DNA of 64,000 nucleotides from Mobula hypostoma (Eukaryota), in assembly GCF_963921235.1 (NCBI RefSeq), contig NC_086097.1, positions 44,208,001 through 44,272,000 on the forward strand. The letters run 5' to 3'. Positions 712 to 50,000 of this stretch are shown here, one piece after another. The number at the start of each line of letters is the position of its first letter. The stretch's first letter is position 1. The notes under the pieces were generated by a model. It worked only from the letters and a program-made list of their open reading frames with translations, ran no database searches and had not been told where the DNA came from. The translations under genes were made by a program, and so were the position numbers.

Positions 712-870
712 AACAACAAAAAACAAATTGTTGGAGGAATTCAAAATGTGAAACAGCATCTGTGGAGGCACAGGGATTGTTGATGTTTTGAATCAGGACT
801 GATGTGAGATGATGAAGAGTTTTGACATAAATGTTGACTACCTCTTTGCTTCCACAGATGCTGCTTGTCT
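712..870. mobile_element. Degenerate Penelope-like terminal-repeat remnant, loosely palindromic
   Basis: ttggaggaattc...cagcatctgtggagg and the inverted tccacagatgctg resemble the repeats at 6150, 38535 and 55085. Confidence 0.5.
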
Positions 871-1910
871 TTTTTATCCCCCGCCCCCCTTCAGATTCTA
901 ACATTGGTATTTATTTTTGTCTTTGAGAACCTGTGTTTGCTGTATACAAGAGTATACAAATGCTGCTCCCTTGTTTACTTTAAAATGCCTGAGGTTACTT
1001 CACAGGAGGGTTCTCCCATTAGGAATATTGGGGCAAATGGGGGATAGGCATGTTCACGAAGCAGAGAAAAAGTTGATGGTTTTAAGGCTTGGGGTTTATT
1101 CAGCTGCATGTCTGACGAGTCAAGTGATTGACATTGGAAATAGGAGGACGGAGTTAGAGGAGTGAAGATATCCTGGATGTGTAAAGCAGGAGAGGATTGT
1201 AATGAAAGGGGGTAAGGTTATAGAGGGATTAGAAAATGGAGCTAACTTTTTAATATGGATTCATTGTGGGTTGATTATTAAAGGAGTAATTGGTGGATAG
1301 GACTTATAGTGAGTTAGAACAAGGATAATAGAACTTTGGGTAACCTTAGGTTATGGAGGGGGAAGGAAGTAGGAGACTGACCTGGGATGTGTTGGATCCA
1401 AGGCATAGGCAGAGTCAAGGATTGTTAGTTGTCTTCCAATAATAGATCTCAGACAAGCAGTCAGACAGCTTAGAAACTGTGGAGGGTTGGTGGCAGTTGT
1501 CCATTGTCCAGCACTTATTTTCTATGCTTAGATGATTTTAGTGCTTGTTTAGACACTTCTTAAGACTTCCTATTGATCAGCTTCCATCAACCTCCCAAAC
1601 ACTGTGATCCAGGTATTTGCCCTCTCTGGGTGAAAAGGGTCTCCTTTCCGATTTCCTCTAAGCCTCTTACCTCTTGCCTAAAATCTATATCCTCTACTTC
1701 TATCTACATTTGATATGGGGAAAGGTTTCCTGCCATCTATTACCTATACGCCTCATAATATTATATACCTTAACATCCCGCACTCTAAGAAAAACAGATC
1801 CATTCTTTCCTCTTAATTAAAATGCTCTCATTTGGCAAGAGTCAGATCCACCAACCTAAAACGCAGTTTTCAGAAATGGTATTTCAGAAAGATGAGTGTT
1901 GATTTGAAAT

Positions 1911-4370: not shown

Positions 4371-4921
4371 GCACTTTAATAGGTACACCTGCACAGCTTG
4401 TTAATTCATATAACTAATCAGCCAATCATGTAGTGGCAACTCAGTGCATAAAAGCATGCAGACATGGTCAAGAGGTTCAGTTGTTGTTCAGACCAAACAT
4501 CAGAGTGGGGAAGAAGTGTGCTCTATATGACTTTGATTGTGGAATAATTGTTGGTGCCAGATGGGGTGGTCTGAGTATCTCAGAAACTGCTGATTTCATG
4601 GGATTTTCATACACACCAGTCTCTAAAGTTTACAGAGAAATAGCGCATTTTTAATCCAGCGAGCAGCAGTTCTGTGGGCAAAATGTCTTATAAATGAGGG
4701 AAGTCAGAGGAGAATGACCAGAATGTTTCAAGCTGACGGGAAGGTGACAGTAACTCAAATAACCACATGTTACAACAGTGGTGCGTAGAAGAGCATCTCT
4801 GAATGCAGAACACGTTGAACCTTGAAATGGATGGGCTACAGCGGCAGAAGACCATGAACATACACTTAGTGGCCACTTCATTAGCTACAGGAGCTACCTA
4901 ATGAAGTTGCCATGGAGTGCA
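4371..4921 (+). mobile_element. Tc1/mariner remnant (transposase N-terminal HTH plus TIR remnants)
   Basis: ORF 4433-4654 reads GKKCALYDFDCGIIVGARWGGLSISETADFMGFSYTPVSKVYRE. TIR-like cactt(t/c)a(a/t)tag(g/c)tac at 4372 and 4874, with an inverted copy at 4895-4920. Confidence 0.8.
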
Positions 4922-5484
4922 TATAGATTTTTTAAAAATAGCGTTCTTTCCATTTCAAAACCAAGCAGCCTCATTTTTCTCCTCTTCGCTCAAATGAAAT
5001 ACTGTTTCTCCACAGGAATTGCAAAGCACAAATGAGTAGGTCTGTTTATATTGAAACTTGTTTGATTGTTATAGCTAAAAGTTATTACTGCAAACAAGCC
5101 AGCATCTCTTAGCACTACAATGAAGAGTCAGATCATCCATGAGCTCAAACCCTGAATGGCAGTTAAGCCCCAGGTTTTCTGACTTGGATTGATACACAGT
5201 ACTAACAGCTGAGCCAAACTGAACAAATCCAATGATTTTATATTATCATAAACAAATATAATGGTGATGAGTCAAAACCAGTTTTACGGTCACATTATAA
5301 GCATTTTGCAGCCATGCAGAATGACAATGGATTTGAAATCCACGGTAATCCTGCAGCCTTCTTCACTTAAACTTCTTTGTGGTCTACTTTGTAGCATTCT
5401 CATTTCCTAAAGTTTCACTTCAATGTTGTGAAAGCAGAAAGACAGTGCTTAGAATAATATTGATGTTTGTACTAACCTATAGGT

Positions 5485-8225: not shown

Positions 8226-9879
8226 TCTTGAATTAAGTAATTTATAAATACATGAAAGATGAATAACTTATTTCAAATTTACCTGTGAATTACTGTTGGT
8301 TTACTTTTGAAAAAAAATTGCACCACATCTTTTTATTCGGACATGGCAATGTAACAATTGCTTTTAAAATAATGTCAACATTCAGAATTTTGGTTAGGTG
8401 CACATATAAATCAATTTTACATTCTCCTGTATTCGGCACACTAAAGTTATCCTCTACAGTTCTGGGTAATGAATGATGGGAAGAGTCTGCATTTGTCCCT
8501 GGAGAATACACATTTGTGGATATTGGGTAAGCATCCAATTTAATTCATTTTTCTACCTTGTCATAATGGAGCAGATGGCCAACACCATTGTTCAGAATGT
8601 GAAGAAAGATCTCTTGAACAAAATATTCAGTGACTTTTGACATGAATGAAATGATATCAACTTTAGTAAAAGATAATTTTTTAAAAAGAAGAAAATGGAA
8701 ACTCAGTTGGTCTGTTATTTAAAAAACTTCAACTCCTCGCCTGTTGCAAACGTTCTTCTTTCAGTAGCAATGCTTTCAGTGGTAATGCTACTGTGACACT
8801 GCAATTTCCTTTGGGATCAATAAAGTATCTATCTGCCTATCAATAATAATTTGCAATGCATTGCTTTTTACTGCAGTTGTGTTATATGTACCTCATCACA
8901 AACAACTTCAGTAATGTTAATTGTAAATCAATGATAAATGATAATTAGGATGATTTAATTTTGCCTTTTAATGTTTTTATCAAAGGAAACTAAATCTGAA
9001 CTTCATGCATTCCTGCTTAGTGGCTTCTGTCACTTATTCTTAATGTGGGGATCTTATCATTATAAAAATGATTAACCGGTATACCAGCATTATTATACCA
9101 GGGTTGAATATGCCCACCACTCAGAATACTAATTCTTGTATTTCCTTCAATTACAATTGGCAAACTTCTAAGTTGCCTCATCTGTTCTAAGAGTTTCACC
9201 ATCAGTTGAATTCTACGTTTGTGTGGCTAAGAATTATCAAAGGTTGTAAATAAAAGTTAGTTTAAAATGTACACTGGGTTATAACATGTTTCCCCAGAGA
9301 TCCCAGTGCTGAATGATGCATCATAACTCACATGAAAGGTGACTAATTTGCAAATACAGATACCAAGGAGAAAATGGCCTCTGGAGGTAGAAAATGCAGG
9401 AGGTTTCAAGGAGGAAAGTTTTGGTGTGGTGTCTAATTCCGTAAATAAAATTTGTATTGATAGAACAATGTATCTAATTATATCAATGACTCAATTTTTC
9501 AGTTTGCTCTAGAATCCAGCAGCTTATCAATTGAACCAAACTTATCACCTGTAAAAACAAACTTCTTTGTAAAATTTAATTAGGCATACATAGGGTACTA
9601 GATCCCGTTTGCTTACCAACAGAGTTTTACTGATACAGTACATGTTTGGTACCTCAAATGCACAGTTAGAATCAGTCAGTATGAGTCAACTTCCACCAGA
9701 CATCTATACAACTTCAGTTAACTGCAGGCACCACAATTAGAAATAAATTTGTAGCTGAGGACAAAACTGTTGCCAGAATGTTAACAACAGGAATTCTGCA
9801 GATGCTGGAAATTCAAGCAACACACATCAAAGTTGCTGGTGAACGCAGCAGGCCAGGCAGCATCTGTAGGAAGAGGTGC

Positions 9880-9915
9880 AGTCGACGTTTCAGGCCGAGA
9901 CCCTTCCTCAGGACT
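9880..9915 (-). ncRNA. Minimal type-I hammerhead ribozyme motif
   Basis: Minus strand reads agtc-CTGAGGA-agggtctcggcct-GAAA-cGTC-gact. Confidence 0.7.
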
Positions 9916-9978
9916 AACTGAAGGAAGAGTGAGTAAGGCCTCCAACTTTCAAATCCCTTACTCACTCTTCCTTCAGTT

Positions 9979-10014
9979 AGTCCTGACGAAGGGTCTCAGC
10001 CTGAAACGTCAACT
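9979..10014 (+). ncRNA. Minimal type-I hammerhead motif with a stem I mismatch
   Basis: agtc-CTGACGA-agggtctcagcct-GAAA-cGTC-aact. Confidence 0.6.
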
Positions 10015-10974
10015 GCACCTCTTCCTAGAGATGCTGCCTGGCCTGCTGCGTTCACCAGCAACTTTGATGTGTGTTGCCAGAATGTTATTTCAATTACTGA
10101 GCTCTGCTTTAGTATATCCCTCCCCTTTCTTGATCCAAGATTTATTGTGATCATTATACAGGGCATCAACAGCTCAGAACTTCCTCTGCAGGGTCTCCTG
10201 CCTGTAGCAGGAAGAGGAAATTAGAACACAGCCATGATCATTTTATTTTCATTGGTGTCAGGATCTCTGTAAGGGCTCCAGTTGCAAACAAACTGAATCG
10301 TGGCCAATAGTGACGTATTATCCAGATGCCCTGTAGCGTTCAGCTGATGTTCACATCAAAAAATGTTTAAAATGGGTGCTGCAGGATGTCATATAGCTGA
10401 ATTGGATTTTTTCTAACCTTGGCTTCTCCCTGAATAAATCTCAGAACACAGTCAAAAGGACAGAAACTTTGTAAAATGGGCAGACCTTTTCCTTTGTCCC
10501 TATGAATAAATTCACCAAAAGGAATTTTACAGCTCTGAAGGAACTAATCACTTAATCCCATTCCTCTGCCATAATTTATATTCTTTAATTTGTTTTCTTT
10601 GTAGTTTTGAAAACTATTATAGATTCAGCCTCTCTTTTTGACATTTTTTAAATCTGCATTCTTGTCTTTAATTTATAAACTCATCAATGGAAATTTTAAT
10701 CAAAATGTGCCATTATTTTGTTTAGTCCAATCAGACTTCCCAACCTCAAACTCTTTTGCCTAATGATAGGAAAACTATAATTAATTAATTTGTCATGCTA
10801 TAAAAAAACTACTTTAATACTGCACCATACATTTATGGAATAATTTTCTGAGAGTATCTTAATGAAGTTCTTTTAGACTCTATTTACACATACTCTTTTA
10901 CCTCCAAAGGTTCAATTAAACTTTCCAGACTCAACAATTTCTTTGGGTTGAAATATTGACACCTAAGACAAATA

Positions 10975-15365: not shown

Positions 15366-17762
15366 GGTTTAAACTAATATGACAAGGGAATGGGAACAGG
15401 TTCCTTTGGGCTAAGGATAGGGCTGCTGGTTTACAAGCAGAGGCTGTGTGCGGTGAGGCCAGCAGATGATAGGGTAAAATTGCAGTCAGTGGGATGAGTT
15501 GCAGTGCAAAAAGAGGACAAAATCGAAAATGGAGATGGATACAGGACTGAAGGTCTTATATTTGAATGCACGCAGTATACGAAATAAGGTAGATGATCTT
15601 CTAGTGCAGTTAGAGATTGGCAGGTATGATATCATGAGCATCACTGAGTTGTGGCTCAGCAGATCGGGCAGCATCCGTGGAAATGAACAGTCAACGTTTC
15701 AGGCCAAGAGGCTTCGTCAGGACTGAAGAGGAAGGGGGCGGGGCCCTACAAAGAAGGTGGGGGGAGGGTGGGAAGGAGAAGGCTGGTAGGTGCCAGGTGA
15801 AAAACCAGTAAGGGGAAAGATCAAGGGGTGGGGGAGGGGAAGCAGGGAGGGGATAGGCAGGAAAGGTGAAGGAACAGGGGAAAACACAATGGGTAGGAGA
15901 AGGAGGCGGAACCATGAGGGAGGTGATAGGCAGCTGGGGGAGGGGGCAGAGTGAAACTGGGATAGGGGAAGGGAGGGGGAGGGATTACCAGAAGTTGGAG
16001 AATTCAATGTTCATGCCAAGGGGCTGGAGACTACCCAGACAGTATATGAGATGTTGCTCCTCCAACCTGAGTTTGGCCTCATCATGGCAGTAGAGGAGGC
16101 CATGTATGGACATATCTGAATGTGAGTGGGAAGCAGAGTTGAAGTGGGTGGCTACTGGGAGATCCTGTCTGTTGTGGCGGACGGAGCGGAGGTGCTTGAC
16201 GAAGCGGTCCCCCAATCTGCGTCGGGTCTCACCAGTGTAGAGGAGGCCGCACCTGGAGCATCGGATGCAATAGATGACCCCAACAGACTCATATACCGTC
16301 TTACTAATGATCTTTCTAGAATCAATAGATTTTGGCATGGCTCCAGAGGACTGGGAAATAGCAAATGTCACTCCACTCTTCAAGAAGCGGGGAAGCCAGA
16401 AGAGAGGAAATTATATACCAGTTAGCCTGACCTCAGTGGTTGGGAAGATGTTGGAGTCGATTTTTAAGGATGAGGTCTCAGGGTACTGATAAAATAGGCG
16501 AAAGTCAGCATGGTTTCCTTAAGGGGAAATTTTGCCGGACAAATCCATTGGAATTCTTTTAGGAAATAACAAGCAGGATAGATAAAAGAGAAATGGTGGA
16601 TGTTGTGTACTTGGACTTCCAGAAGGCCTTTGACAAGGTGCCTCACAAGAGGCTGCTTAACAAGATAAGAGCTCACGGTGTTACAGGAAAGATACTAGCA
16701 TGGATAGAGCATTGGCTGATCGGCAGGAGACAAAGAGTGGGAATAAAGTGAGTTTTTCTAATAGGTTGCCGGTGATTAGTGGTGTTCTGCAGGGGTTGGT
16801 GTTGGGGCTGCTTTTTTTTTTATGTTGTATGCCTATGATTTAGTTGATGGAATTGATGGCTTCATGGCAAAGTTTACGGAAAAGAAGTGGAGGGCCAGGT
16901 AGTGTTGAGGAAGCATGACTTGGGATCGGGCAAAGAATTGGCAGATGGAATACAATGTCAGAAATGTACGGTCATGCACTTTGGTAGAAGGGATAAAACA
17001 TAGATTATTTTCTAAACGGAGAGGAAATTCAAAAATTAGAGGAGCGATAGAACATGGGAGTCCTCGTGCAGGATTCTCTAAAAGTTAATTTGCGGGTTGA
17101 GTCAGTGATGAGGAAGGAAAATGTAAAGTTCGCATTCATTTTGAGAGGATGAGAATATAAAAGCAAGGATGTAATGTTGAGGCTTTATAAAGCACTGGTG
17201 AGGCCTCACTTGGAGTATTGTGAGCATTTTTGGGCGTCATATTTAAGAAAGGTTGTGCTGACATTGGAAAGGGTTCAGAGGAGGTTCACAAGAATAATTC
17301 CAGGAATGAAAGGCTTATTGTATGAGGAAGTATTGATGGCTCTGAGCCTTTACTCACTGGAATTTAGAAGAATGAGGGGGAATCTCATTGAAACATATTG
17401 GATGTTGAAAGGCCTAGATAGACTGGATGTGGAGAGGATGTTTACTATGGTGGGGAGTCTAGGACAAGAGGGTACAGCTTCTGAATAGAGGGACGTCCAT
17501 TTGCAATGGAGATGAGCAGGAATTGCTTTAGCCAGAGAGTGGTGAATCCGTGGAATTCGTTGTCACAGGCACCTGTGGAGGCCAATTCATTAGGTGTATT
17601 TAAGGCAGAGGTTGATAGGTTCTTGATTAGTCAGGGTGTGAAAGGGAACAGGGAAAAGGCAGGAGAACGGGGTTGAGAAGGAAATGGATCAGCCGTGATG
17701 AAATGGTTGAGCAGGCTTGAGATGCCAAATGGCCCAATTTTGCTCCTATGTCTTATGGTCTA
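15365..17762 (+). mobile_element. CR1 LINE with an internal deletion occupied by a Penelope element
   Basis: Endonuclease start LKVLYLNARSIRNKVDDL...ITELWL ends near 15655. Sequence resumes near 16295 at MIFLESIDFGMAPEDWEIANVTPLFKK and runs through RT to the tail tcttatggtct. Confidence 0.9.
15656..16292 (-). mobile_element. Penelope-like element 3' part: GIY-YIG endonuclease, 3'UTR and terminal repeat with hammerhead motif (15688-15725)
   Basis: VGVIYCIRCSRCGLLYTGETRRRLGDRFVKHL...PVATHFNS...EQHLIYCLGSLQPLGMN (stop at 15985). Hammerhead cagtc-CTGACGA-agcctcttggcct-GAAA-cgtt-gactg. Confidence 0.92.
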
Positions 17763-24955: not shown

Positions 24956-26626
24956 TACACTTTTTCTTGAGCAAAAGTTGATAATTGTGATTGGCATTTC
25001 TAATTAATCTGATAATGTAATTTTTAAATTTCCTTGTTGAATATGCTCAATAGCACACAAATTGGTGGTCAATCTAAATGTAGAATATTTTGCATTCAAG
25101 CAAATTTTTATATTAATTGTTTAATATGCAGATATTTATCTTCTAGCAATGGTGGGAGACCTGACCAATATAAAGAACAATATACTGACAATGCGTATAA
25201 TATATTTATTTGTATATAATAAGTCAGAGTGTAACATTACTGAGCCCTTTGAAATGTCTCTAAATGATCAGGTATTGAAATGTTTGCCAAAGGCTGCATT
25301 TTGCAAGATTCTGGATGACTTTGATGCAATTCTAGCAATTTCTCTTAATGAATAAGGCTGGTATGAAGACCATAAGATATAGGAGCAGAAGTAGGTGATT
25401 CGGCCTATCGACTCTGCTCCACCATTCAACCATAGGCTGATCCAATTCTTCAAGTCATTCCCACTCCCCAGCCTTCTCCCCATACCCTTTGATGCCCTGG
25501 CTAATCAAGAACCTATCTAACTCTATCTTAAATGCACCCAATGACTTGGCCTCCACAGCGGCTCATGGCAACAAATTCCAAAGATTTACCACCCTCTGAC
25601 TAAAGTAATTTCTCTGCATCTCTGTTCTAAATGGACCTCTTTCAATCCTGAAGTCGTGCCCTCTTGTCCTGGGCTCCCCTACCATGGGAAATAACTTTGC
25701 CATATCTAATCTGTTCAGGCCTTTTAACATTCGGAATGTTTCTATGAGATCCCCCGCTCATTCTCCTGAACTCCAGGGAAGACAGCCCAAGAGCTGCCAA
25801 ACATTTCTCATACGGTAACCCTTTCATTCCTGGAATCATTCTTGTAAATCTTCTCTGAACCCACTCCAATGTCAGTACATCCTTTCTAAAATATGGAGCC
25901 CAAAACTGCACAGAATACTCTAAGTGTGGACTCACGAGTTCCTTATAGAGCCTCAACATCACATCCCTGCTCTTATATTCTATACCTCTAGAACCTCTTC
26001 ACCACCGACTCAACCTGGAGGTTAACCTTTAGAGTGTCGTGCACAAGGACTCCCAAGTCCCTTTGCACCTCTGCATTTTGAATTCTCTTCCCATCTAAAT
26101 AATACGCTGCCCATTTATTCCTTTCACCAAAGTACATGACCACACACTTTCCAACATTGTATTTCATTTGCCACTTCTTTGCCCACTCCCCTAAATTATC
26201 CAAGACTCTCTGCATGCTCTTTGTTTCCTCAACACTACCCACTCCTCCACCAATCTTTGTATCTTTGGCAAATTTAGCCACAAATCCATTAATCCCATAG
26301 TCCAAATCATTGACATACATCGTAAAAAGCACTGGTCCCAACACCAACCCCTGTGGAACTCCACTGGTAACCGGCAGACAACCAGAATAGGATCCCTTTA
26401 TTCCCACTCTCTGTTTCCTGCTGATCAGCCACTTCTCTGCCCATTCTTCCAATCTATCCAAGTCTCTCTGCAGAGCCTCCGTTTCCTCAGCACTACCGGC
26501 CCCTCCACCTATCTTCGTATCGTCAGCAAACTTAGCCACAAAGCCATCTATTCCATAATCCAAGCAACACACATCAAAGTTGCTGGTGAACGCAGCAGGC
26601 CAAGCAGCATCTATAGGAAGAGGCGC

Positions 26627-26662
26627 AGTCGACGTTTCAGGCCGAGACCCTTCGTCAGGACT
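26627..26662 (-). ncRNA. Minimal type-I hammerhead ribozyme motif, intact core
   Basis: Minus strand reads agtc-CTGACGA-agggtctcggcct-GAAA-cGTC-gact. Confidence 0.75.
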
Positions 26663-27388
26663 AACTGAAGGAAGAGTGAGTAAGGGATTTGAAAGCTGGA
26701 GGGGGAGGGGGAGATGCAAAATGATAGGAGAAGACAGGAGGGGGAGGGATAGAGCCGAGAGCTGGACAGGTGATAGGCAAAAGGGGATACGAGAGGATCA
26801 TGGGACAGGAGGTCCGAGAAGAAAGACGGGGGGGGGTGACCCAGAGGATGGGCAAGAGGTATATTCAGAGGGACAGAGGGAGAAAAAGGAGAGTGAGAGA
26901 AAGAATGTGTGCATAAAAATGAGTAACAGATGGGGTACGAGGGGGAGGTGGGGCCTAGCGGAAGTTAGAGAAGTCAATGTTCATGCCATCAGGTTGGAGG
27001 CTACCCAGACGGAATAGGAGGAACAACACCTTATATTCCGTCTGGGTAGCCTCCAACCTGATGGCATGAACATTGACTTCTCTAACTTCCGCTAGGCCCC
27101 ACCTCCCCCTCGTACCCCATCTGTTACTCATTTTTATGCACACATTCTTTCTCTCACTCTCCTTTTTCTCCCTCTGTCCCTCTGAATATACCTCTTGCCC
27201 ATCCTCTGGGTCACCCCCCCCCCGTCTTTCTTCCCAGACCTCCTGTCCCATGATCCTCTCGTATCCCCTTTTGCCTATCACCTGTCCAGCTCTCGGCTCT
27301 ATCCCTCCCCCTCCTGTCTTCTCCTATCATTTTGCATCTCCCCCTCCCCCTCCAGCTTTCAAATCCCTTACTCACTCTTCCTTCAGTT

Positions 27389-27424
27389 AGTCCTGACGAA
27401 GGGTCTCGGCCTGAAACGTCGACT
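27389..27424 (+). ncRNA. Minimal type-I hammerhead ribozyme motif, intact core
   Basis: agtc-CTGACGA-agggtctcggcct-GAAA-cGTC-gact. Stem I agtc/gact, stem II agg/cct, palindromic ACGT in place of stem III, GUC cleavage triplet at 27418-27420. Confidence 0.75.
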
Positions 27425-29794
27425 GCGCCTCTTCCTATAGATGCTGCTTGGCCTGCTGCGTTCACCAGCAACTTTGATGTGTGTTGCTTGAATTTCCAGC
27501 ATCTGCAGAATTCCTGTTGTTTATTCCATAATCCAAATCGTTGATGGACAATGTAAAAAGAAGCGGCCCCAACACTGATCCCTGTGGAACACCACTGGTA
27601 ACCGGTAGCCAACCAGAATAGGATCCCTTTATTCCCACTCTCTGTTTTCTGCTGATCAGCCAATGCTCCACCCATGCTAGTGACTTCCCTGTAATCCATG
27701 GGCTCACATCTTATTAAGCAGCCTCATATGCAGCACCTTGTTCAAGGCCTTCTGAAAATCCAAGTACACCACATCTACTGCATCTCCTTTGTTTACCTTG
27801 CTTGTTATTTCCACAAAAAATTGCAGTAGGTTAGTCAGGCAGGATTTTCCTTTCAGGAAACCATGCTGGCTTTGGCCTATCTTGTCATGTGCCTCCAGGT
27901 ACTCTGTAATCTCATCCCTAACAATTGATTCCAACAGCTTCCCAACCACTGATATCAGGCTAACAGGTCTATAGTTTCCTTTCTGCTGCCTTCCAGCCTT
28001 CTTAAATAGCAGAGTAACATTTGCAATTTTCCAGTCATCCAGTACAATGTCAGCATTTATTGATTCTTGAAAGATCATTGTTAATGCCGCCACAATCTCT
28101 CCAGCTACTTTCTTCAAAACCCGAGGGTGCATTCCATCAAGTCCAGGAGATTTATCCACCCTCAGACCATTAAGCTTCCTGAGCACCTTCTCAGGCATAA
28201 TTTTCACTGCACATACTTCACTTCCCTGACACTCTTAAATGTCCAGTATACTGCAGACATTTTCCACTGTGAAGACTGATGCAAAACACACATTCAGTTC
28301 CTCTGTCATCTCTGCATTTCTCATTACAATATCTCCAGCATAATTTTCTATTGGTCCTATATCTACCCTCAACTCTCTTTTACCCTTTATATCCTTTCAT
28401 AATTCATTTTTTTCTTCCTAATGACCTTATTAGTTTCCTTCTGCAAGTTTTTAAAAGCTACCCAATCCTCTATCTTCCCACTAGCTTTGGCTTCCTTGTA
28501 TACCCTTTCTTTTGCTTTTATTTTGGCCCTAACTTCACTTGTCCGCCACGGTAGTGTCCTTCTTCCATTCGAAAATTTCTTCTTATTTGGAATATATCTG
28601 TCTTGCACTTCCCTTATTTTTCGCAGAAACTCCAACCACTGCTGCTCTGCTGTCCTTCCTGCTAGTGTCTCTTTCCAGTCAGCTTTGGTCAGTTGCCCTC
28701 TCATGCCATTGTAATTTCCTTTATTCCACTGAAATACCGACACATTGGAATTTAGTTTCTCCTTCTCAAAAATCAAAGTGAACTCGATCATATTGTGACC
28801 ACTGTTCCCTAAGGGTTCCTTAACCTTAAGCTCTCTTATCACCTCCAAATCATTGCACAACATCCAATCCAGCACAGCTGATCCCCTAGTGGGCTCAACA
28901 ACAAGCTGTTCTAAAAAGCCATCCCTTAGACATTCTACAAATTCTCTCTCTTAAGGTCCAGTACTGGCCGGGTTTTCCAAATCCACTTTCATGTTAAAAT
29001 CCCCAAAGATTATCATGACATTGCCTTTCTGACACGACTTTTCTATCTCCTGCTGTAATTTGTAATCTACATCCCGGCTGCTGTTTGGAGGCCTGTATAC
29101 AACTGCCATTAGGGTTCTTTTACCCTTGGCATTTCTTAACTCAACCCATAGAGACTCTATACCTTCCAATTCTATGTCATCCCTTTCTAATGATTTAGTA
29201 TTATTTTTTATACACAGGGCCACATCACCCCCTCTGCCTACTAACCTATCTTTCAGATACACTGTATGTCCTTAGATGTTCAGCTCCCAATGGCAGCCAT
29301 CCTTTAGCCAAGTTTCAGAGATGGCCAAAACATCATACTTGCCAATCTGTAGCTGAATTTCAAGATTGTCCATTTTATTCCTTATGCTGCATGCATTCAA
29401 ATATAAAATTTTCAGTCCAGTATTTGTTGCTTTCTGTTTTAAGTGCACCATGCCTCTATTGTCCTGTAACTCATCCCACTGGCTGTGATTATACCTCATC
29501 TCCTGCCTGTCCTTTCTATCATTTCTGTTGCACTCTACCTTTGATTTATTTCTGTTTTTCCCTTCCTCAGCCCTATCACTCCGGTTCTCATCCTCCTGCT
29601 AAATTAGTTTAAATCCTCCCGAACATCTCTATTAAACCTGCCTGCTAGGATATTGGACCGTTTTGGGCTCAGGTGTAACCCGGCCTTTTTGTACAGGTCA
29701 AACCTCTCCCACTGATCCAGGAACCCGAAGCCCTGTCCCCTACAGCAGTCTCTCAGCCATGCTTTAATATGCTTGATCATGCTGTTCTTGCACT

Positions 29795-41486: not shown

Positions 41487-44400
41487 TGTGGCGAGCATTT
41501 GGTCTATAATGACAGGCGAGGAAGCTCGTTAACTCAACAACCGTTTTATTGTGATAAACACAAAACAGTCCAGGCACCATGACCGGAGAGTGAACAGATG
41601 GGGGAGGGGACCATCACACACCCCGGTTACAGTTAGGGTGACCCATAAATACACAAGCAAATAACTCTATAACCCAAGCTAAAATGTAACAATAAATGAA
41701 CTGGAACTTCCCACCATAATCCCACAAAGGCATTTTAACACAAGAACAATAAACAGTACTAGTCATTAGAAATGCAGGGGTGGCTGTCAACCATACCCCA
41801 CCCCTCAGAGCGTCACACTGCCCCCACCTGAGGGGTCAGCCACCCCCGACAACCCCAGAGCCGATGCAAAGTCTAAAGGTTCCAGTGGGCATTGACTCTG
41901 CCACCTGTTTGTTTGAGGCAAGAGGCAGGGCACCCAGAGTGTCACTTCCTTCCCTCAGCCTCGCCGGGTTAGTGGTGGCCAGGGACTGACAGGGTACCAG
42001 CCAGTCCCGGTGCAGCACGACTGCCTTCCACCGCTCAGACAGCCACACCCGATATACCACATCGGAGACACGGTCGAGCACCTCTCCCAGTGGCTTCCAC
42101 ACCTGGGGGATAGTCCCTTCTTCTGGGAGGGCAGTAGACCCATACTGGAGCCCCCACCATTTACTGTTGCTGCACTGGCACCCCGGACTGTTTGCCCGGT
42201 CCCTTCTGGGACATGCACGCGTCGCAGCAGTACAAGAAAAGCCCCACGTCCTGCCTGTACCCAGGCCAGTAGAAGCATTCATGCAGCCTGCCCATCGTCT
42301 TTGAAACCCCAAAATGGCCGTCCCCCAGCAGCTCGTGCACCGACCACAGCACCATGGTGCGGAGCCGCCGGGGACCGCCAGCTGCAAGAGATGTATGCAC
42401 CGCAGGAACAGCAACCCGTAACACACCTCCAGCATTCCCCACGGCGAGTATAGGGCCTTGGTCTCCGGATCCGGGGCGGAGACCTCTGCCCACTCCGGCC
42501 GTCGTCCCACACTCAGCCATTCCCTCACCCGGGCCAACACGGGGTCGCTCACAAGTTCGCTGTGCAGCCGCTCGTAGTCCATGGTGGGGAGGCCGTCGAT
42601 GGCTGTCACCTGAAGTGCCGTCACCGTCGCTTGCCCGTGGTTCAGCTGCGTCGTGTTGGGCTGCTGCCGGGTGTGAATACACTGTCGCGGGCCGCTGTGA
42701 AACCGGCGGTGGTTGCTGCCCCCGGTGGGGCCGCTCCCTGGAGCTGCCCTGCTGGAGAGCCGCAGCTTCAGCTCCGAGGCAGAGTGTTGTACCTGGCACA
42801 TCCACACGGGCCCCCCAGTGGGACAGCAGGTCCAGGCCAAGGATGTAGGACTCTCGGATGTCGGCGAGCCACACCTCGTACTCCACCGTGTTTCTCCCCA
42901 CTGCGACACGCAGCCTCCTCTTCCCGCGCATCGCCACACAGTCACCGGTGACCGTCGCCAGCTGGTCCGCCGTCGTTGTCCCCCCGGGGGGATGGCTAGT
43001 CCGTGTTGGAGAGAACACCGGGACGGATGGTGGTGATGGTTGACCCCATGTGCACCAACGCACGGCATCTGATGCCCTCCCGACACAGTCCACATATAAG
43101 CAACAACGGAGGGGTTCCGCTGGAGGACTCAGGCAGCACTGCCGATCGGCGTTTCCCAATGGCTGCTCTGGGCTGTGGCGTGGTGCCATTGCGGGGCAGT
43201 CCCGGGCCAAATGACCTGCCTCACCGCACCGGTAGCGGAGATTGTTTCGTTGTCTCACGGGCTCCTCCTGATCAGTTTCCTCCTCAGCCTCAGTGACACA
43301 AACCCGGTCTCGCGGCGTGCAGGGCGATGCTGGAACACTTTGTGGGACTAAAATTGCTTCTGCCCCCTCCACCCTGGCCAGCGCCTCATCCAGCGATGAT
43401 GGCAACGTCAGGCGAACGTGGTGCCGAAGGTGCTCCGGCATCAGCGCCTTTACAAAGCCGTGAAGGACAAGCTCTTCCTGGGCCGCGGGAGAGAAGTCAG
43501 GGTAGCTATGTTGAGCACAGTGGCGAAGATCAGCTGCCAGTGCCCCCAGACTTTCTCCGATACTGGTGCTGTCTGCTGCACAGTTCTTCCCTCATTGCTT
43601 CCACCAACGGCCTCTCCACTGCCACTACAAGGGCCCTGTAGTCGTGCTGCTCCACCGGCGTTAGGTCGATGAGGGCCTGCAGGGCATCTCCCTCCAGTGC
43701 CAGGGCAAGGTGCACCACTGTCTCAGTGGGGCTCCATCCGTTGTGTCACGTGGCAAGTTTGACTTGCGCCAGGTAAGGCTCCAGGTGGCTGGTACTGTCG
43801 TATCTGGGGAGCTTCAGGGTAGACCTTGAGGCGCAATCGTCGAGGCCCTTTGAACTTCCTCTTGTTCCGGCGGCGTCTGACATGGTGCCCATGGCTACGG
43901 CGTCTTGGGTTCCTCAGTGTGGATCATGATGGAGGCGAGTGGTGCGTTCCGCTCTGTCCCCCGGGTTGGGGAGCCTGGCTACACTCGCTCCGTCGGGGTT
44001 CCCTGGGAAGGCACGCTCCGGGTCTTGTCTTCATGAGCTCTGCCTGTGGGTGTGGGGGAGGCCTACAACTCAGTCCCTCGTCTTATTCCCCAGGTCTTAA
44101 GGCACTCTCTCCAATGTCGTAGCTCTTCAATCTCGTCGCCGATCTCACATCCCACTCCTGACACCAGTGTGGTGAGCATTTGGTCCACAATGACAGACGA
44201 GGAAGCTGGTTGAACTCAACAACCGTTTTATTGTGATAAACACAAAACAGACCGGGCACCATGACCCGGAGAATGAACCCAACCAGTTTCACACCGACGG
44301 GGGAGGTGACCATCACACACCCCAGTTACAGTCAGTGTGACCCACAAATACACAAGTGATTAACTGTGTAACCCAAGCTAAAATGTAACAATAAATGAAA

Positions 44401-47054: not shown

Positions 47055-50000
47055 TAAGTATAGAGCTTTGGATATTGTTGTGGGGGATGACCTCCCAAGG
47101 GACTGCCACGGAGACCAGGTTACTGGGACTGAGCATGGGTCCATGGCGCAGAAGGTAAAGAGGGAGAAGAGGGGAGCGGTAGTGGTAGGGTACTCAATAC
47201 TGTAGTCAGAGGAACAGACAGGAAATTCTGTGGGAATGAACAGGACACCCGCGTGGTATGTTGCCTCCCAGGTGCCAGGGTCAGGGACATCTCTGATTGC
47301 ATCCACAACATTTAGAGAGGGAGGAGCTCAGCCAGATGTCTTGGTACATATCAGTACCAAGGACATAGGAAGGAAAAGCAATGAGGTCCTGAAGAGAGAA
47401 TTTAGATAGCTCGGCAGAAAGCTGAGAAGCAGGACCTCCAGGATAGTAATTTCTAGATTGCTCTCTGTGCCACGCGCCAGTGAGGGTAGAAACAGGATGA
47501 TTTGGCAGATAAATGTATGGCTGAGAAGCTGGTGCAGGGGCAGGGGTTCAGGTTCTTGGATCATTGGGATCTCTTCTGGGGAAGGTATGACCTGTACAAA
47601 AAGGAGGGGTTACACCTGAACCCAAGGGGAGCCAGTATTCTTGCTGGGAGGTTTGTTAGAGCTGTTGGGGAGGGTTTAAACTAATTTGGCAGGGTGATGG
47701 GAACTGGAATGAAGGGACTCAGGATAGAACGGATGGTAAAAAAAAAAGCAAAAATAGTGTGCAGTCAGACTGTCAAGGAATGGCAGGCAGACGATTGGAT
47801 AAAATTGCAGCCAGCAGGGTGAGTATCAGTTCATTAGGGATGCAAAATCAAAAAGGGTAGCAAATACAGCACTCAGAGTGTTATGTCTCAATGCACAGAG
47901 TGTAAGAAATAAGGTGGATGATCTTGTTGCACTACTACAGATTGCCAGGTATGATGTTGTGGCCGTCACTGAATCTTGGCTGAAGGATGGTTGTAGTTGG
48001 GAGCTGAATGTCCAAGGCTACTCGTGTCAGAAGGATAAGAAGATAGGCAGAGGGGGGTTGCGTGGCTCTGCTGGCAAACAATGGCATCAAATCAGTAGAA
48101 AGATGTGACATAGGGTCAGAAGATGTTGAATCCTTGTGGGTTGAGTTAAGAAATTGCAAAGGTAAAAGGACCCTGATGACAGTTATATACTGGATTGGGT
48201 GTGATGTAATGAACTGGAGGCGATTAGGGAGCTTAAGGTAAAAGAACCCTTAGGAGCCAGTGATCACAATATGATTGTGTTCAACTTGAAAATTGATGGA
48301 GAGAAAGTAAAGTCTGATGTAGCAGTGTTTCAGTGGAGTAAAGGAAATTACTGTGGTAAGAGAATGGAGTTGGCCAGAGGAAATTGGATGGTGCTGCCGG
48401 CAGGGATGACAGAAAGCAGCAATGGCATGAGACATTGCTTGGACATTCAGCTCCCAACTACAACCATCTTTCAGCCAAGATTCAGTGACGGCCACAACAT
48501 CATACCTGGCAATCTGTAGTAGTGCAACAAGATCATCCACCTTATTGCTCATACTCTGTGCATTGAGATATAACACCCTGAGTGCTGTATTTGCTACCCT
48601 TTCTGGCAAAAATGAGGATGGTGCCAGACAGATGTATCCAAGAATGAAGAAATACTCAAATGGCAAAGTAGTACAACTGTGACTGACAAGGAAAGTCAAC
48701 ACTAATGTAAAAACAAAAGGGAGGGCATACAACAAAGCAAAAATTGGTGGGAAGATAGAGGATTGGGAAGCTTTTAAAAACCTACAGACAGCAATTAAAA
48801 TAATCCTTAGAAGGAAAAGATGAAATATGAAGGCAAGCTAGCAAACAATATCAAACTAGATAGTAAAAGCGTTTTCAAGTATGTAAAAAATAAAAGAGAG
48901 ATGAAAGTGGATATAGGACCACAAGAAAATGATGCTGGAGAAATAAAAATGGGGGACAGGGAGATGGCAGATGAACTAAATGAGTATTTTGCACCATTCT
49001 TCACTGAGGAAGACACTAACTGTGTGCCAGATGTTATAGTGTGTGAAAGAAGAGGAATGAGTACAGTTAACATTACAAGGGAGAAGATGCTCAAAAAGGT
49101 GAATGATCTAAGGGTATATAAGTCACCCAGACCAGATGAACTGCACCCTAGGGTTCTGAAAAAGGTAATGGTAGAGATTATGGAGACATTAGCAATGATC
49201 TTTCAAAAATCATTGGATTCTGGCATGGTGCCAGAGGACTGGAAAATTGCAAATGTCACTCCACTCTTTAAGAAAGGAGGAAGGAAGTAGAAAGGAAATT
49301 ATAGACCATTTGGCCTCACCTCAGAGGATGGGAAGATGTTGGAGTCAATTGTTAAGAATGAGGTTATGGAGTACTTGGTGACACAGGACAAGAAAGGACA
49401 AAGTCAGCAGGGTTTCCTTAAGGGGAAATCTTGCCTGACAAACCTATTGGAATTCTTTGAGGAGATTACAAGTAGGATAGATAAAGGGATGCAGTGGATG
49501 TTGTATATTTGGACTTTCAGAGGCCTTTGACAAGGTGCCACACTTGAGGCTGCTTACCAAGTTAAGAGCCCATGGTATTACAGGGAAGTTACTAACATGG
49601 TTAGAGCATTGGCTGATTGGTAGGAAACAGCAAGTGGGAACAAAAGAATCCTTGTCTGGTTGGCTGCCAGTGACTGGTGGTTTCTGCAGGGGTCAATGTT
49701 GGGACCACTTCTTTCTAAGCTGTATATCAATAATTTAGATGATGGAATAAATGGATTTGCTGCCAATTTGCAGATGATACGAAGATTGGTAGAGGGGCAG
49801 GTAGCATTGAGGAAACAGGTAGGCTGCAAAAGTCCTTAGACAGATTAGGAGAATTGGCAAAAAAGAGGCAAATGAAATACAATGTTGGAAAATGCATGGT
49901 CATGCACTTTGGTAATAGAAATAAATGTGCAGACGATTGTCTAAACAAGGAGAAAATCCAAAAGTCTGAGATGCAAAGGTACTTGGGAGTCCTTGTGCAG

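What the first reader, a model, noticed from the sequence alone, without database searches (positions are those of the whole stretch)
26627..27424. Intact minimal hammerhead ribozymes in Penelope terminal repeats
Seen: identical motifs agtc-CUGACGA-agggucucggccu-GAAA-cGUC-gacu on both strands (26627-26662 minus, 27389-27424 plus). Established: Penelope-like elements carry minimal type-I hammerheads whose stem III is reduced to a palindromic loop (here ACGU) and which cleave mainly as dimers. Inference: this genome hosts a recently active, ribozyme-bearing GIY-YIG retroelement family that scatters self-cleaving RNA motifs. The general phenomenon is known; this family may be uncatalogued.
Basis: partly seen in the sequence, partly recalled or inferred. 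Interest (0 to 1): 0.75.

Follow-up and report, generated by a model that had tools for sequence, protein, structure and literature searches.

The report
Penelope head-to-head stub carrying minimal hammerheads
The two ribozyme-like motifs are real, but they are the mirror-image ends of one truncated, head-to-head insertion of a very abundant Penelope-type jumping gene, a class already known to carry this motif, and in a transcript of this locus they are predicted to pair with each other rather than cut.

Summary
Observation confirmed: identical minimal type-I hammerhead motifs lie at 26627-26662 (-) and 27389-27424 (+). They are not two independent repeats. One 958-bp palindromic insertion (26564-27521) holds two 5'-truncated arms, a 34-nt tail on one arm, a 17-nt centre spacer and a 15-bp target duplication, inside a LINE RT frame. 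A second insertion (9783-10077) has the same layout. The element is a GIY-YIG Penelope-like family, probably Neptune-type, closest to ray proteins. Hammerheads in pLTRs, opposite-strand pairs, inverted arms and tails are all published. Corrections: stem II is a bulged A plus a G10.1·U11.1 wobble, not the canonical G-C; inverted copies cannot form the cis dimer; an upstream hairpin is predicted to mask the core; genomic copies lose core CpGs about as fast as loop CpGs. The motif is conserved between subfamilies, so selection likely acts on source elements, not on scattered copies. Cleavage was not testable. The inverted layout likely arises by priming from both target nicks. This scan has already noted the same layout and model at many other loci of this genome. 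New member of a known kind; low interest.

The parts
27389..27424 (+). Minimal type-I hammerhead motif: stem I 27388-27392/27421-27425, core C3-A9 27393-27399, bulged A 27400, stem II 27401-27404/27409-27412 (closing pair G10.1·U11.1), G12-A15.1 27413-27416, palindromic ACGU 27416-27419, C17 27420
   Evidence: the bulged register has pair probabilities 0.87-0.97 against 0.02 for the A-U register in the isolated 44-mer
26627..26662 (-). Identical hammerhead motif in the inverted arm
27017..27521 (+). Tailed arm (505 nt): last codons of the GIY-YIG ORF, 3' UTR, hammerhead, downstream block, tail
26564..27016 (-). Tail-less inverted arm (453 nt), equal to element positions 27034-27487; differs from the tailed arm by 2 substitutions and one homopolymer indel
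27017..27033 (+). 17-nt asymmetric centre spacer (5' extension of the tailed arm)
27488..27521 (+). One-sided 34-nt tail (31 nt if the 3-nt microhomology is given to the short arm); contig loose ends pile up at 27522
27018..27095 (+). C-terminal remnant of the GIY-YIG ORF with its stop codon; 22 of 24 aa identical to ray protein P0006, which also reads into the same 3' UTR (35 of 38 aa)
26549..26563 (+). Left copy of the 15-bp target-site duplication; its last 3 nt are microhomologous to the element
27522..27536 (+). Right copy of the 15-bp target-site duplication
27374..27403 (+). Predicted upstream hairpin (-8.7 kcal/mol) that pairs the 5' half of the core and displaces stems I and II
   Evidence: prediction only
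25563..29598 (-). Host LINE (RVT_1 hits; the label CR1-like is recalled) whose RT reading frame is split by the insertion and continues across the duplication; bounds approximate
9783..10077 (.). Second palindromic insertion of the same family: tailed arm 9783-9938 (-), 17-nt spacer 9939-9955, tail-less arm 9939-10077 (+), 16-bp duplication 9768-9783/10072-10087 with 6-nt microhomology; arms differ at 4 of 122 shared positions; the + motif has G1.1>A
15693..16293 (-). Older-subfamily copy with a GIY-YIG domain (Pfam PF01541, 23.6 bits, cut-off 22.6) followed by a hammerhead motif at 15720-15693

Best explanation
The two identical hammerhead motifs are passengers in the two arms of a single 5'-truncated, head-to-head insertion of an abundant endonuclease-bearing (probably Neptune-type) Penelope-like retrotransposon, likely built when both nicked target ends primed reverse transcription on the element's RNA, and at this locus they are predicted to be silent. 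Shown by sequence: arms, tail, spacer, target duplication, split host frame, GIY-YIG link, conservation pattern. Inferred: the enzyme nicks the two strands 15-16 nt apart; one 3' end primes at the tail end, the other about 34 nt upstream with 3-6 nt of microhomology; both cDNAs stop early and are joined head to head. Inferred from the literature: in full-length, same-sense tandem source elements the motif would cleave slowly as a strand-swapped dimer or with help from the element's protein, and that is where selection keeps the core. Inserted stubs then decay neutrally. Odds: identity 0.9; twin priming as the cause of the layout about 0.55; the family motif cleaving under some condition about 0.55; cleavage at this locus about 0.1.
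For: Architecture at 2 of 2 young insertions in the window matches the published PLE pattern: inverted 5'-truncated copy, 30-40-bp one-sided tail, TSD. Opposite-strand min-HHR pairs about 100-700 bp apart were reported in 2014. The arm's ORF stub and 3' UTR match ray protein P0006; P0006 and 8 more of the 10 relatives fetched carry a CX2-5CxxC linker before the endonuclease, the Neptune/Nematis mark. Both strands read from the TSD straight into antisense element sequence, with microhomology of 3 and 6 nt at the tail-less ends; a purified PLE protein cuts and extends both strands and starts RT at two sites that bound the tail. The arms of each locus share the lineage variants at 27427 and 27448 that separate the two loci. 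Five older in-window copies match the motif at 148 of 180 positions against 147 of 270 in the immediate flanks, and contigs of 4 organisms diverge right at the motif's edges, 27389 and 27424/5. Non-CpG core positions stay below the 3% listing threshold in all 4 runs; large variants fall at N7 and at 11.1 (C or U, both pairing with G10.1). Core CpG decay in X2 (G8 7.5%, C15.2 7.1%, G16.2 8.2%, C17 6.8%, G1.1 7.9%) is close to loop II CpG decay (8.6%, 11.4%). The whole insertion folds as one hairpin that pairs the motif.
Against: The mechanism rests on 2 insertions. In vitro, the Anolis enzyme started at RNA sites not homologous to the cut DNA, unlike the microhomology seen here. The block downstream (27439-27470) is nearly as conserved as the motif (123 of 160, p=0.23 against the motif), so conservation is not specific to the ribozyme; the five copies are related, so the p-values are optimistic. 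Loop CpGs decay somewhat faster than core CpGs in all four runs, which leaves room for weak selection or lineage effects. The arms of the second insertion differ at 27438 by two letters (C, G) that both segregate in the family, which fits two RNA templates better than one. Run statistics are depth-weighted contigs laid at >=85% identity, biased to conserved copies, and X1/X2 may be the source of this DNA. No read or contig was shown to span the junctions. No cleavage or expression data.
Confidence: 0.8

Rival explanations
1. One reading: these are intact, working ribozymes, and the family spreads functional self-cleaving motifs through the genome.
For: All core nucleotides are present; a strand-swapped double hammerhead is topologically possible at -12.9 kcal/mol; the family is huge (186,892 contig pieces laid in X1), so dimers in trans are conceivable.
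Against: Opposite-strand copies give one sense motif per transcript, paired to its antisense mirror; a non-catalytic duplex of two 44-mers is far more stable (-31.7 kcal/mol); an upstream hairpin removes stems I and II; core CpGs decay in copies; published min-HHR monomers show no cleavage and dimers low cleavage; 8 of 9 Xenopus dimer elements did not cleave.
Confidence: 0.1
2. The palindrome arose by fold-back self-priming of one cDNA (Arkhipova's self-priming model) and not by priming from both target ends.
For: Proposed for Adineta PLEs. At 26564-27521 the tailed arm carries the extra 17 nt, as a first cDNA that snaps back would, and 3 bases inside the spacer can pair.
Against: At 9783-10077 the extra 17 nt lie on the tail-less arm, so a snap-back copy could not have supplied the tail of the other arm without a further step. 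Microhomology at both tail-less ends fits either model.
Confidence: 0.25
3. The motif is vestigial in this family: it no longer cleaves and is kept because it overlaps a promoter, protein-binding or RT-start region.
For: U11.1 is the majority state in 4 organisms (C only 17-31%); a rough correction for CpG decay leaves 63-81% of the depth born with U. The downstream block is about as conserved as the motif. Ribozyme mutants did not affect insertion in vitro and no RNA-seq ends were found at the Anolis site.
Against: The block shared between subfamilies ends exactly at the two arms of stem I; large variants sit only at positions a hammerhead tolerates; natural hammerheads tolerate even U10.1-U11.1.
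Confidence: 0.3
4. The palindrome is a fixed non-autonomous unit (MITE-like or retrozyme) that moves as such.
For: It has inverted ends and a TSD and codes for no complete protein.
Against: The two palindromes differ in size (958 and 295 bp) and centre; non-LTR retrozymes are same-sense tandem units, which this is not.
Confidence: 0.04
5. The palindrome is an assembly or library fold-back artefact.
For: No contig spanning the junctions was displayed.
Against: A 15-bp TSD, a host reading frame that continues across it, arm-private differences and a second locus with the same geometry.
Confidence: 0.02

Closest known systems
Minimal hammerheads (min-HHR) of metazoan Penelope-like elements (Cervera and de la Pena 2014, PMC4209133; parts 1-2 of 4 read, one of two supplements searched)
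   Same: Type-I topology, stem I of 4-5 bp, unpaired nucleotide between 9 and 10.1, palindromic 15.2-16.2, place in the pLTR, opposite-strand pairs in truncated copies; reported in fish Xena, Poseidon and Neptune elements.
   Different: Stem II is 4 bp with two G·U pairs (7-8 bp in Schistosoma); the closing pair is G10.1·U11.1 in most copies, not G-C; no cartilaginous fish name was found in the searched supplement (file 1 could not be searched).
Inverted-pLTR insertions of EN+ PLEs (Arkhipova 2013, PMC3846280, parts 1-4 of 5 read; Craig 2021, PMC8557442, passages)
   Same: Head-to-head 5'-truncated copies, 30-40-bp one-sided tail, short TSD; one Adineta copy shows a 15-bp overlap at the inverted junction.
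   Different: TSD 15-16 bp against 8-10 bp; both arms here are stubs with no RT; both spacers are exactly 17 nt, a constancy I did not find in these passages.
Anolis Poseidon element PAc (Frangieh 2024, PMC11167929; parts 1-2 of 4 read)
   Same: Two RT start sites bounding the tail; both strands cut and extended; hammerhead just upstream of the tail.
   Different: PAc is Poseidon-type, whereas relatives here have the CX2-5CxxC linker; PAc priming was without homology, whereas here there are 3-6 nt of microhomology; PAc cleavage was assayed (protein-assisted), this one was not.
Non-LTR retrozymes (Li et al. 2026 bioRxiv 10.64898/2026.07.22.740005; parts 1 and 3 of 5 and passages read)
   Same: Type-I hammerhead derived from PLE pLTRs; found in the one chondrichthyan sampled.
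   Different: Retrozymes are same-sense tandem repeats; this is an inverted pair that retains an endonuclease stub.

Membership tests
min-HHR of metazoan PLEs | Core C3-U4-G5-A6-N7-G8-A9, G12-A13-A14-A15.1, U16.1-H17 | tested here: met
min-HHR of metazoan PLEs | Stem I of 4-5 bp closing on the cleavage site; no helix III; palindromic 15.2-16.2 | tested here: met
   5 pairs including a terminal U·G; ACGU
min-HHR of metazoan PLEs | Unpaired nucleotide between 9 and 10.1 | tested here: met
   A27400; fold probabilities and C/U variation at 11.1
min-HHR of metazoan PLEs | G10.1-C11.1 pair (typical, not absolute) | tested here: not met
   G·U in all 4 young arms; C in 17-31% of family depth. A variant, not an exclusion: other pairs occur naturally
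min-HHR of metazoan PLEs | Self-cleavage as a dimer or with protein | not testable with these tools
   No raw RNA reads were offered; contigs cannot show RNA ends
EN+ Penelope-like elements | C-terminal GIY-YIG endonuclease with CCHH motif upstream of the pLTR | tested here: met
   24-aa stub in this copy; Pfam-positive domain in the older copy at 15988-16293
EN+ Penelope-like elements | PLE-type RT in the same ORF | tested here: inconclusive
   Absent from the window; RT-motif sequence in the partial ray protein P0006 and full RT+EN in P0012/P0013 at 48-51% endonuclease identity
EN+ Penelope-like elements | Inverted 5'-truncated copy, one-sided 30-40-bp tail, TSD | tested here: met
   2 of 2 young insertions
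Neptune clade | CX2-5CxxC linker between RT and EN (shared with Nematis) | tested here: met
   In 9 of 10 relatives, including same-subfamily P0006; not in this truncated copy
Neptune clade | RT phylogeny against reference clades | not tested
   No reference PLE set was on hand; no tree was built
Non-LTR retrozyme | Same-sense tandem units each with a hammerhead | tested here: not met
   The copies are inverted

The most novel reading that the evidence does not exclude
A dimeric Penelope RT copies one RNA twice, once from each nicked target end, and the trailing subunit stalls one enzyme footprint (about 17 nt) behind the leading one, leaving the 17-nt spacer seen at both insertions; meanwhile this subfamily keeps its hammerhead switched off with an upstream anti-core hairpin and a G·U closing pair until the element's protein refolds it. 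Both points can be counted across the family's many copies. Against it: n=2, and an unchecked earlier scan note reports a spacer-less palindrome in the same genome.
Probability: 0.12. Interest if true: 0.6.

Novelty: new member of a known kind. Interest (0 to 1): 0.2.

Why it matters
As a hammerhead finding it is ordinary: pLTR hammerheads are general in Penelope-like elements. Its value is as material. A young, very high-copy family shared by at least four organisms lets one count tail ends, spacer lengths and microhomologies and so test how PLEs integrate, which is still open. It also offers a natural G10.1·U11.1 variant for asking whether PLE ribozymes matter at all. A practical point: these stubs give false miRNA-family hits and turn up inside predicted host proteins.

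Tried and rejected
Rfam scan: no hammerhead model among 11 matches; the miRNA hits lie below gathering scores and the best sit on the palindromes. No whole genome is held, so no direct genome-wide count was possible. A downstream-block pattern found 0 matches in viral contigs and 0 in metagenome contigs. Raw-read runs X21 and X22 laid 0 reads: no test. 'No places where many molecules begin or end' comes from contigs and says nothing on cleavage. Summed depths were not converted to copy numbers. One search showed 40 of 68 variant rows and 15 of 114 joints, so centre-junction spacers could not be counted. The unbulged A10.1-U11.1 register was rejected. Post-insertion CpG decay as the main source of U11.1 was rejected by a rough estimate. 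Other old remnants were checked for palindromes: only 733-882 gave a degenerate pair, with a centre too decayed to measure. Lunse et al. (PMC5785218) is not held and is known only through passages of PMC6765202. Literature searches for this family: Penelope+shark+ribozyme gave 2 papers, neither describing it; Penelope+Neptune+shark gave 1 unrelated paper; Penelope+ray+Chondrichthyes+genome+transposable gave 10, listing only seen; junction-geometry searches gave only Arkhipova 2013 and Craig 2021 as relevant. These cover an open-access library only. Look-ups of earlier scan notes by sequence, nearby place and wobble wording were empty.

Full report
Observation. The two motifs are present and identical at 27389-27424 (+) and 26627-26662 (-), with C17 at 27420. 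The core pattern occurs 4 times in the window and never in 100 shuffles. A structural descriptor gives 4 sites against a mean of 0.1 in 50 shuffles. Rfam reports no hammerhead among 11 weak matches; my inference is that its models expect helix III.

Anatomy. The motifs lie in the arms of one palindrome. The tailed arm is 27017-27521 (+). The inverted arm is 26564-27016 (-) and corresponds to element positions 27034-27487. It lacks the last 34 nt (the tail) and the first 17 nt (the centre spacer). A 15-bp duplication (26549-26563, 27522-27536) frames the insert, and the RT reading frame of a host LINE continues across it (Pfam RVT_1 on both sides; 'CR1-like' is a recalled label). The arms differ by 2 substitutions and one homopolymer indel. 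A second insertion at 9783-10077 has the opposite orientation, a different centre, the same tail, a 16-bp duplication and again a 17-nt spacer, here on the tail-less arm; its arms differ at 4 of 122 positions. At the tail-less ends the target shares 3 nt and 6 nt with the element, so those ends can be placed at 27487-27490 and 27481-27487. An HMM built from seven in-window copies finds 17 remnants of this 3' region in the window: the 4 young arms and 13 older pieces.

Identity. The tailed arm begins with the last codons of a GIY-YIG ORF: 22 of 24 aa match P0006, a predicted devil-ray protein that also reads into the same 3' UTR at 35 of 38 aa. An older in-window copy has a Pfam GIY-YIG domain above cut-off followed by a hammerhead. 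With that domain as query, 20 of 63 candidates passed E<=1e-10; the named ones are ray proteins, the five best at 78-90%, and full RT+EN proteins match at 43-51%. Nine of the 10 relatives fetched have a CX2-5CxxC linker before the endonuclease, which marks Neptune and Nematis and is absent from Penelope/Poseidon (PMC8557442, passages). No tree was built, so Neptune is probable, not shown. No PLE RT lies in the window. Eighteen of 24 listed runs, from four coded organisms, hold at least half of the arm's words; four of them may be the source of this DNA. In X1 alone 186,892 contig pieces were laid on the arm; this shows abundance, not a copy number.

The ribozyme motif. As an isolated 44-mer it folds stem I (5 bp) and stem II in the bulged register, A27400 unpaired and G27401·U27412 closing (probability 0.96, against 0.02 for the A-U register). 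This matches the published min-HHR with a nucleotide between 9 and 10.1, except that the pair called highly conserved there is G10.1-C11.1 (PMC4209133). Across four organisms C11.1 has 21, 31, 18 and 17% of the depth; correcting roughly for CpG decay leaves 63-81% born with U, so the wobble is a source-lineage trait. Variation between C and U supports pairing with G. Natural hammerheads tolerate even U-U here (PMC3088659, passage), so the wobble weakens but does not exclude activity. With 20 nt or more of native upstream sequence, stems I and II fall to probability 0.0, because an upstream hairpin pairs the 5' core. A strand-swapped double hammerhead is possible (-12.9 kcal/mol) but a non-catalytic duplex is more stable (-31.7). 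In a transcript of the whole insertion every motif base pairs with its mirror copy. These are nearest-neighbour predictions and ignore protein help.

Between subfamilies the motif is conserved over its immediate flanks: 148 of 180 against 147 of 270 positions in five older copies. Contig loose ends pile up at 27389 and 27425 in all four runs (509/449, 366/368, 26/38, 21/29). Non-CpG core positions are below the 3% listing threshold, whereas nearby flank positions reach 16-68% in X2. Against specificity, the block 27439-27470 is nearly as conserved (123 of 160, p=0.23), and the five copies are not independent. Within the family, core CpGs decay at 6.8-8.2% in X2 and loop CpGs at 8.6-11.4%; the other three runs show the same order. 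I infer selection on source elements and near-neutral decay of scattered copies. The runs are contigs laid at >=85% identity, which drops rare variants and favours conserved copies.

Mechanism. On each strand the duplication runs directly into antisense element sequence, as expected if two nicks 15-16 nt apart each primed cDNA, one at the tail end and one about 34 nt upstream. A purified Anolis PLE protein cuts and extends both strands, starts at two sites bounding the tail and is predicted to dimerise; its hammerhead cleaved only with protein, was dispensable for insertion in vitro, and left no RNA-seq ends (PMC11167929). That paper found no homology at priming sites, whereas both loci here have microhomology. 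Fold-back self-priming (PMC3846280) fits the first locus but cannot by itself give the tail at the second. The shared 17-nt spacer suggests a fixed offset, for instance a trailing RT stalling behind a leading one, but n is 2, the second locus has one arm difference that fits two templates, and an unchecked scan note describes a spacer-less palindrome in this genome.

Comparison and verdict. Min-HHRs in pLTRs of fish Neptune and Poseidon elements, opposite-strand pairs in truncated copies, inverted arms, tails and TSDs are all in print. Related retrozymes were found in the one chondrichthyan sampled in a 2026 preprint, where 1 of 9 Xenopus dimers cleaved. My searches found no description of this family, but Repbase and Dfam could not be searched, one supplement of PMC4209133 and the preprint's supplements were not seen, and Lunse et al. 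was not held. Earlier notes of this scan report the same layout and the same two-end priming idea at other loci of this genome; they are not independent evidence. Verdict: a real, ordinary min-HHR in a new member of a known class, with two small testable extras (the U11.1 plus upstream-hairpin off-state and the 17-nt spacer). Interest 0.2.

Noticed in passing
runs X1/X2 laid on window 27389-27427: A few contigs (3 in X1, 2 in X2, plus related rows with 1-3 letters between) jump back from about 27423-27427 to 27389-27390, suggesting head-to-tail duplications of just the 35-40-nt hammerhead, the arrangement that could cleave as a cis dimer.
   Followed up: no
run X1 laid on window 27488-27523: Opposite-strand joints 27488/27523 (5 contigs) and 27489/27522 (9 contigs): a tail-less end joined to a tailed end, as in tandem arrays of palindromic units.
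   Followed up: no
window 26170-26427: A second RT fragment of the host LINE type (79-84% like 26428-26563 and 27520-27678) follows in the same orientation, a chimeric or doubled LINE end.
   Followed up: partly
window 733-882: A highly decayed inverted pair of older pLTR remnants, probably an ancient insertion of the same layout.
   Followed up: partly
window 41836-43591 (-): ORFs with zinc-knuckle and integrase zinc-binding Pfam hits, likely an LTR retrotransposon remnant, in a 63% GC stretch.
   Followed up: no
window 47849-48016 and 48438-48605: A 168-bp inverted pair, 96% identical, about 420 nt apart; it is not among the pLTR hits.
   Followed up: no
proteins P0003, P0004, P0022: Ray gene models named as a divergent kinase, mucin-2 and ABHD14A isoforms contain Penelope endonuclease sequence: annotation artefacts or exonised copies.
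   Followed up: no
window 9896-9999, 26917-27132, 4858-4924: The palindrome centres and a small hairpin at 4858-4924 give sub-threshold Rfam miRNA hits (MIR5229, MIR408, mir-9256).
   Followed up: partly
window 27464-27490 and 27488-27521: The tail-less end lies at the 3' foot of a small predicted hairpin (-6.4 kcal/mol) and the tail folds weakly on its own (-3.7): possible RT start signals.
   Followed up: partly
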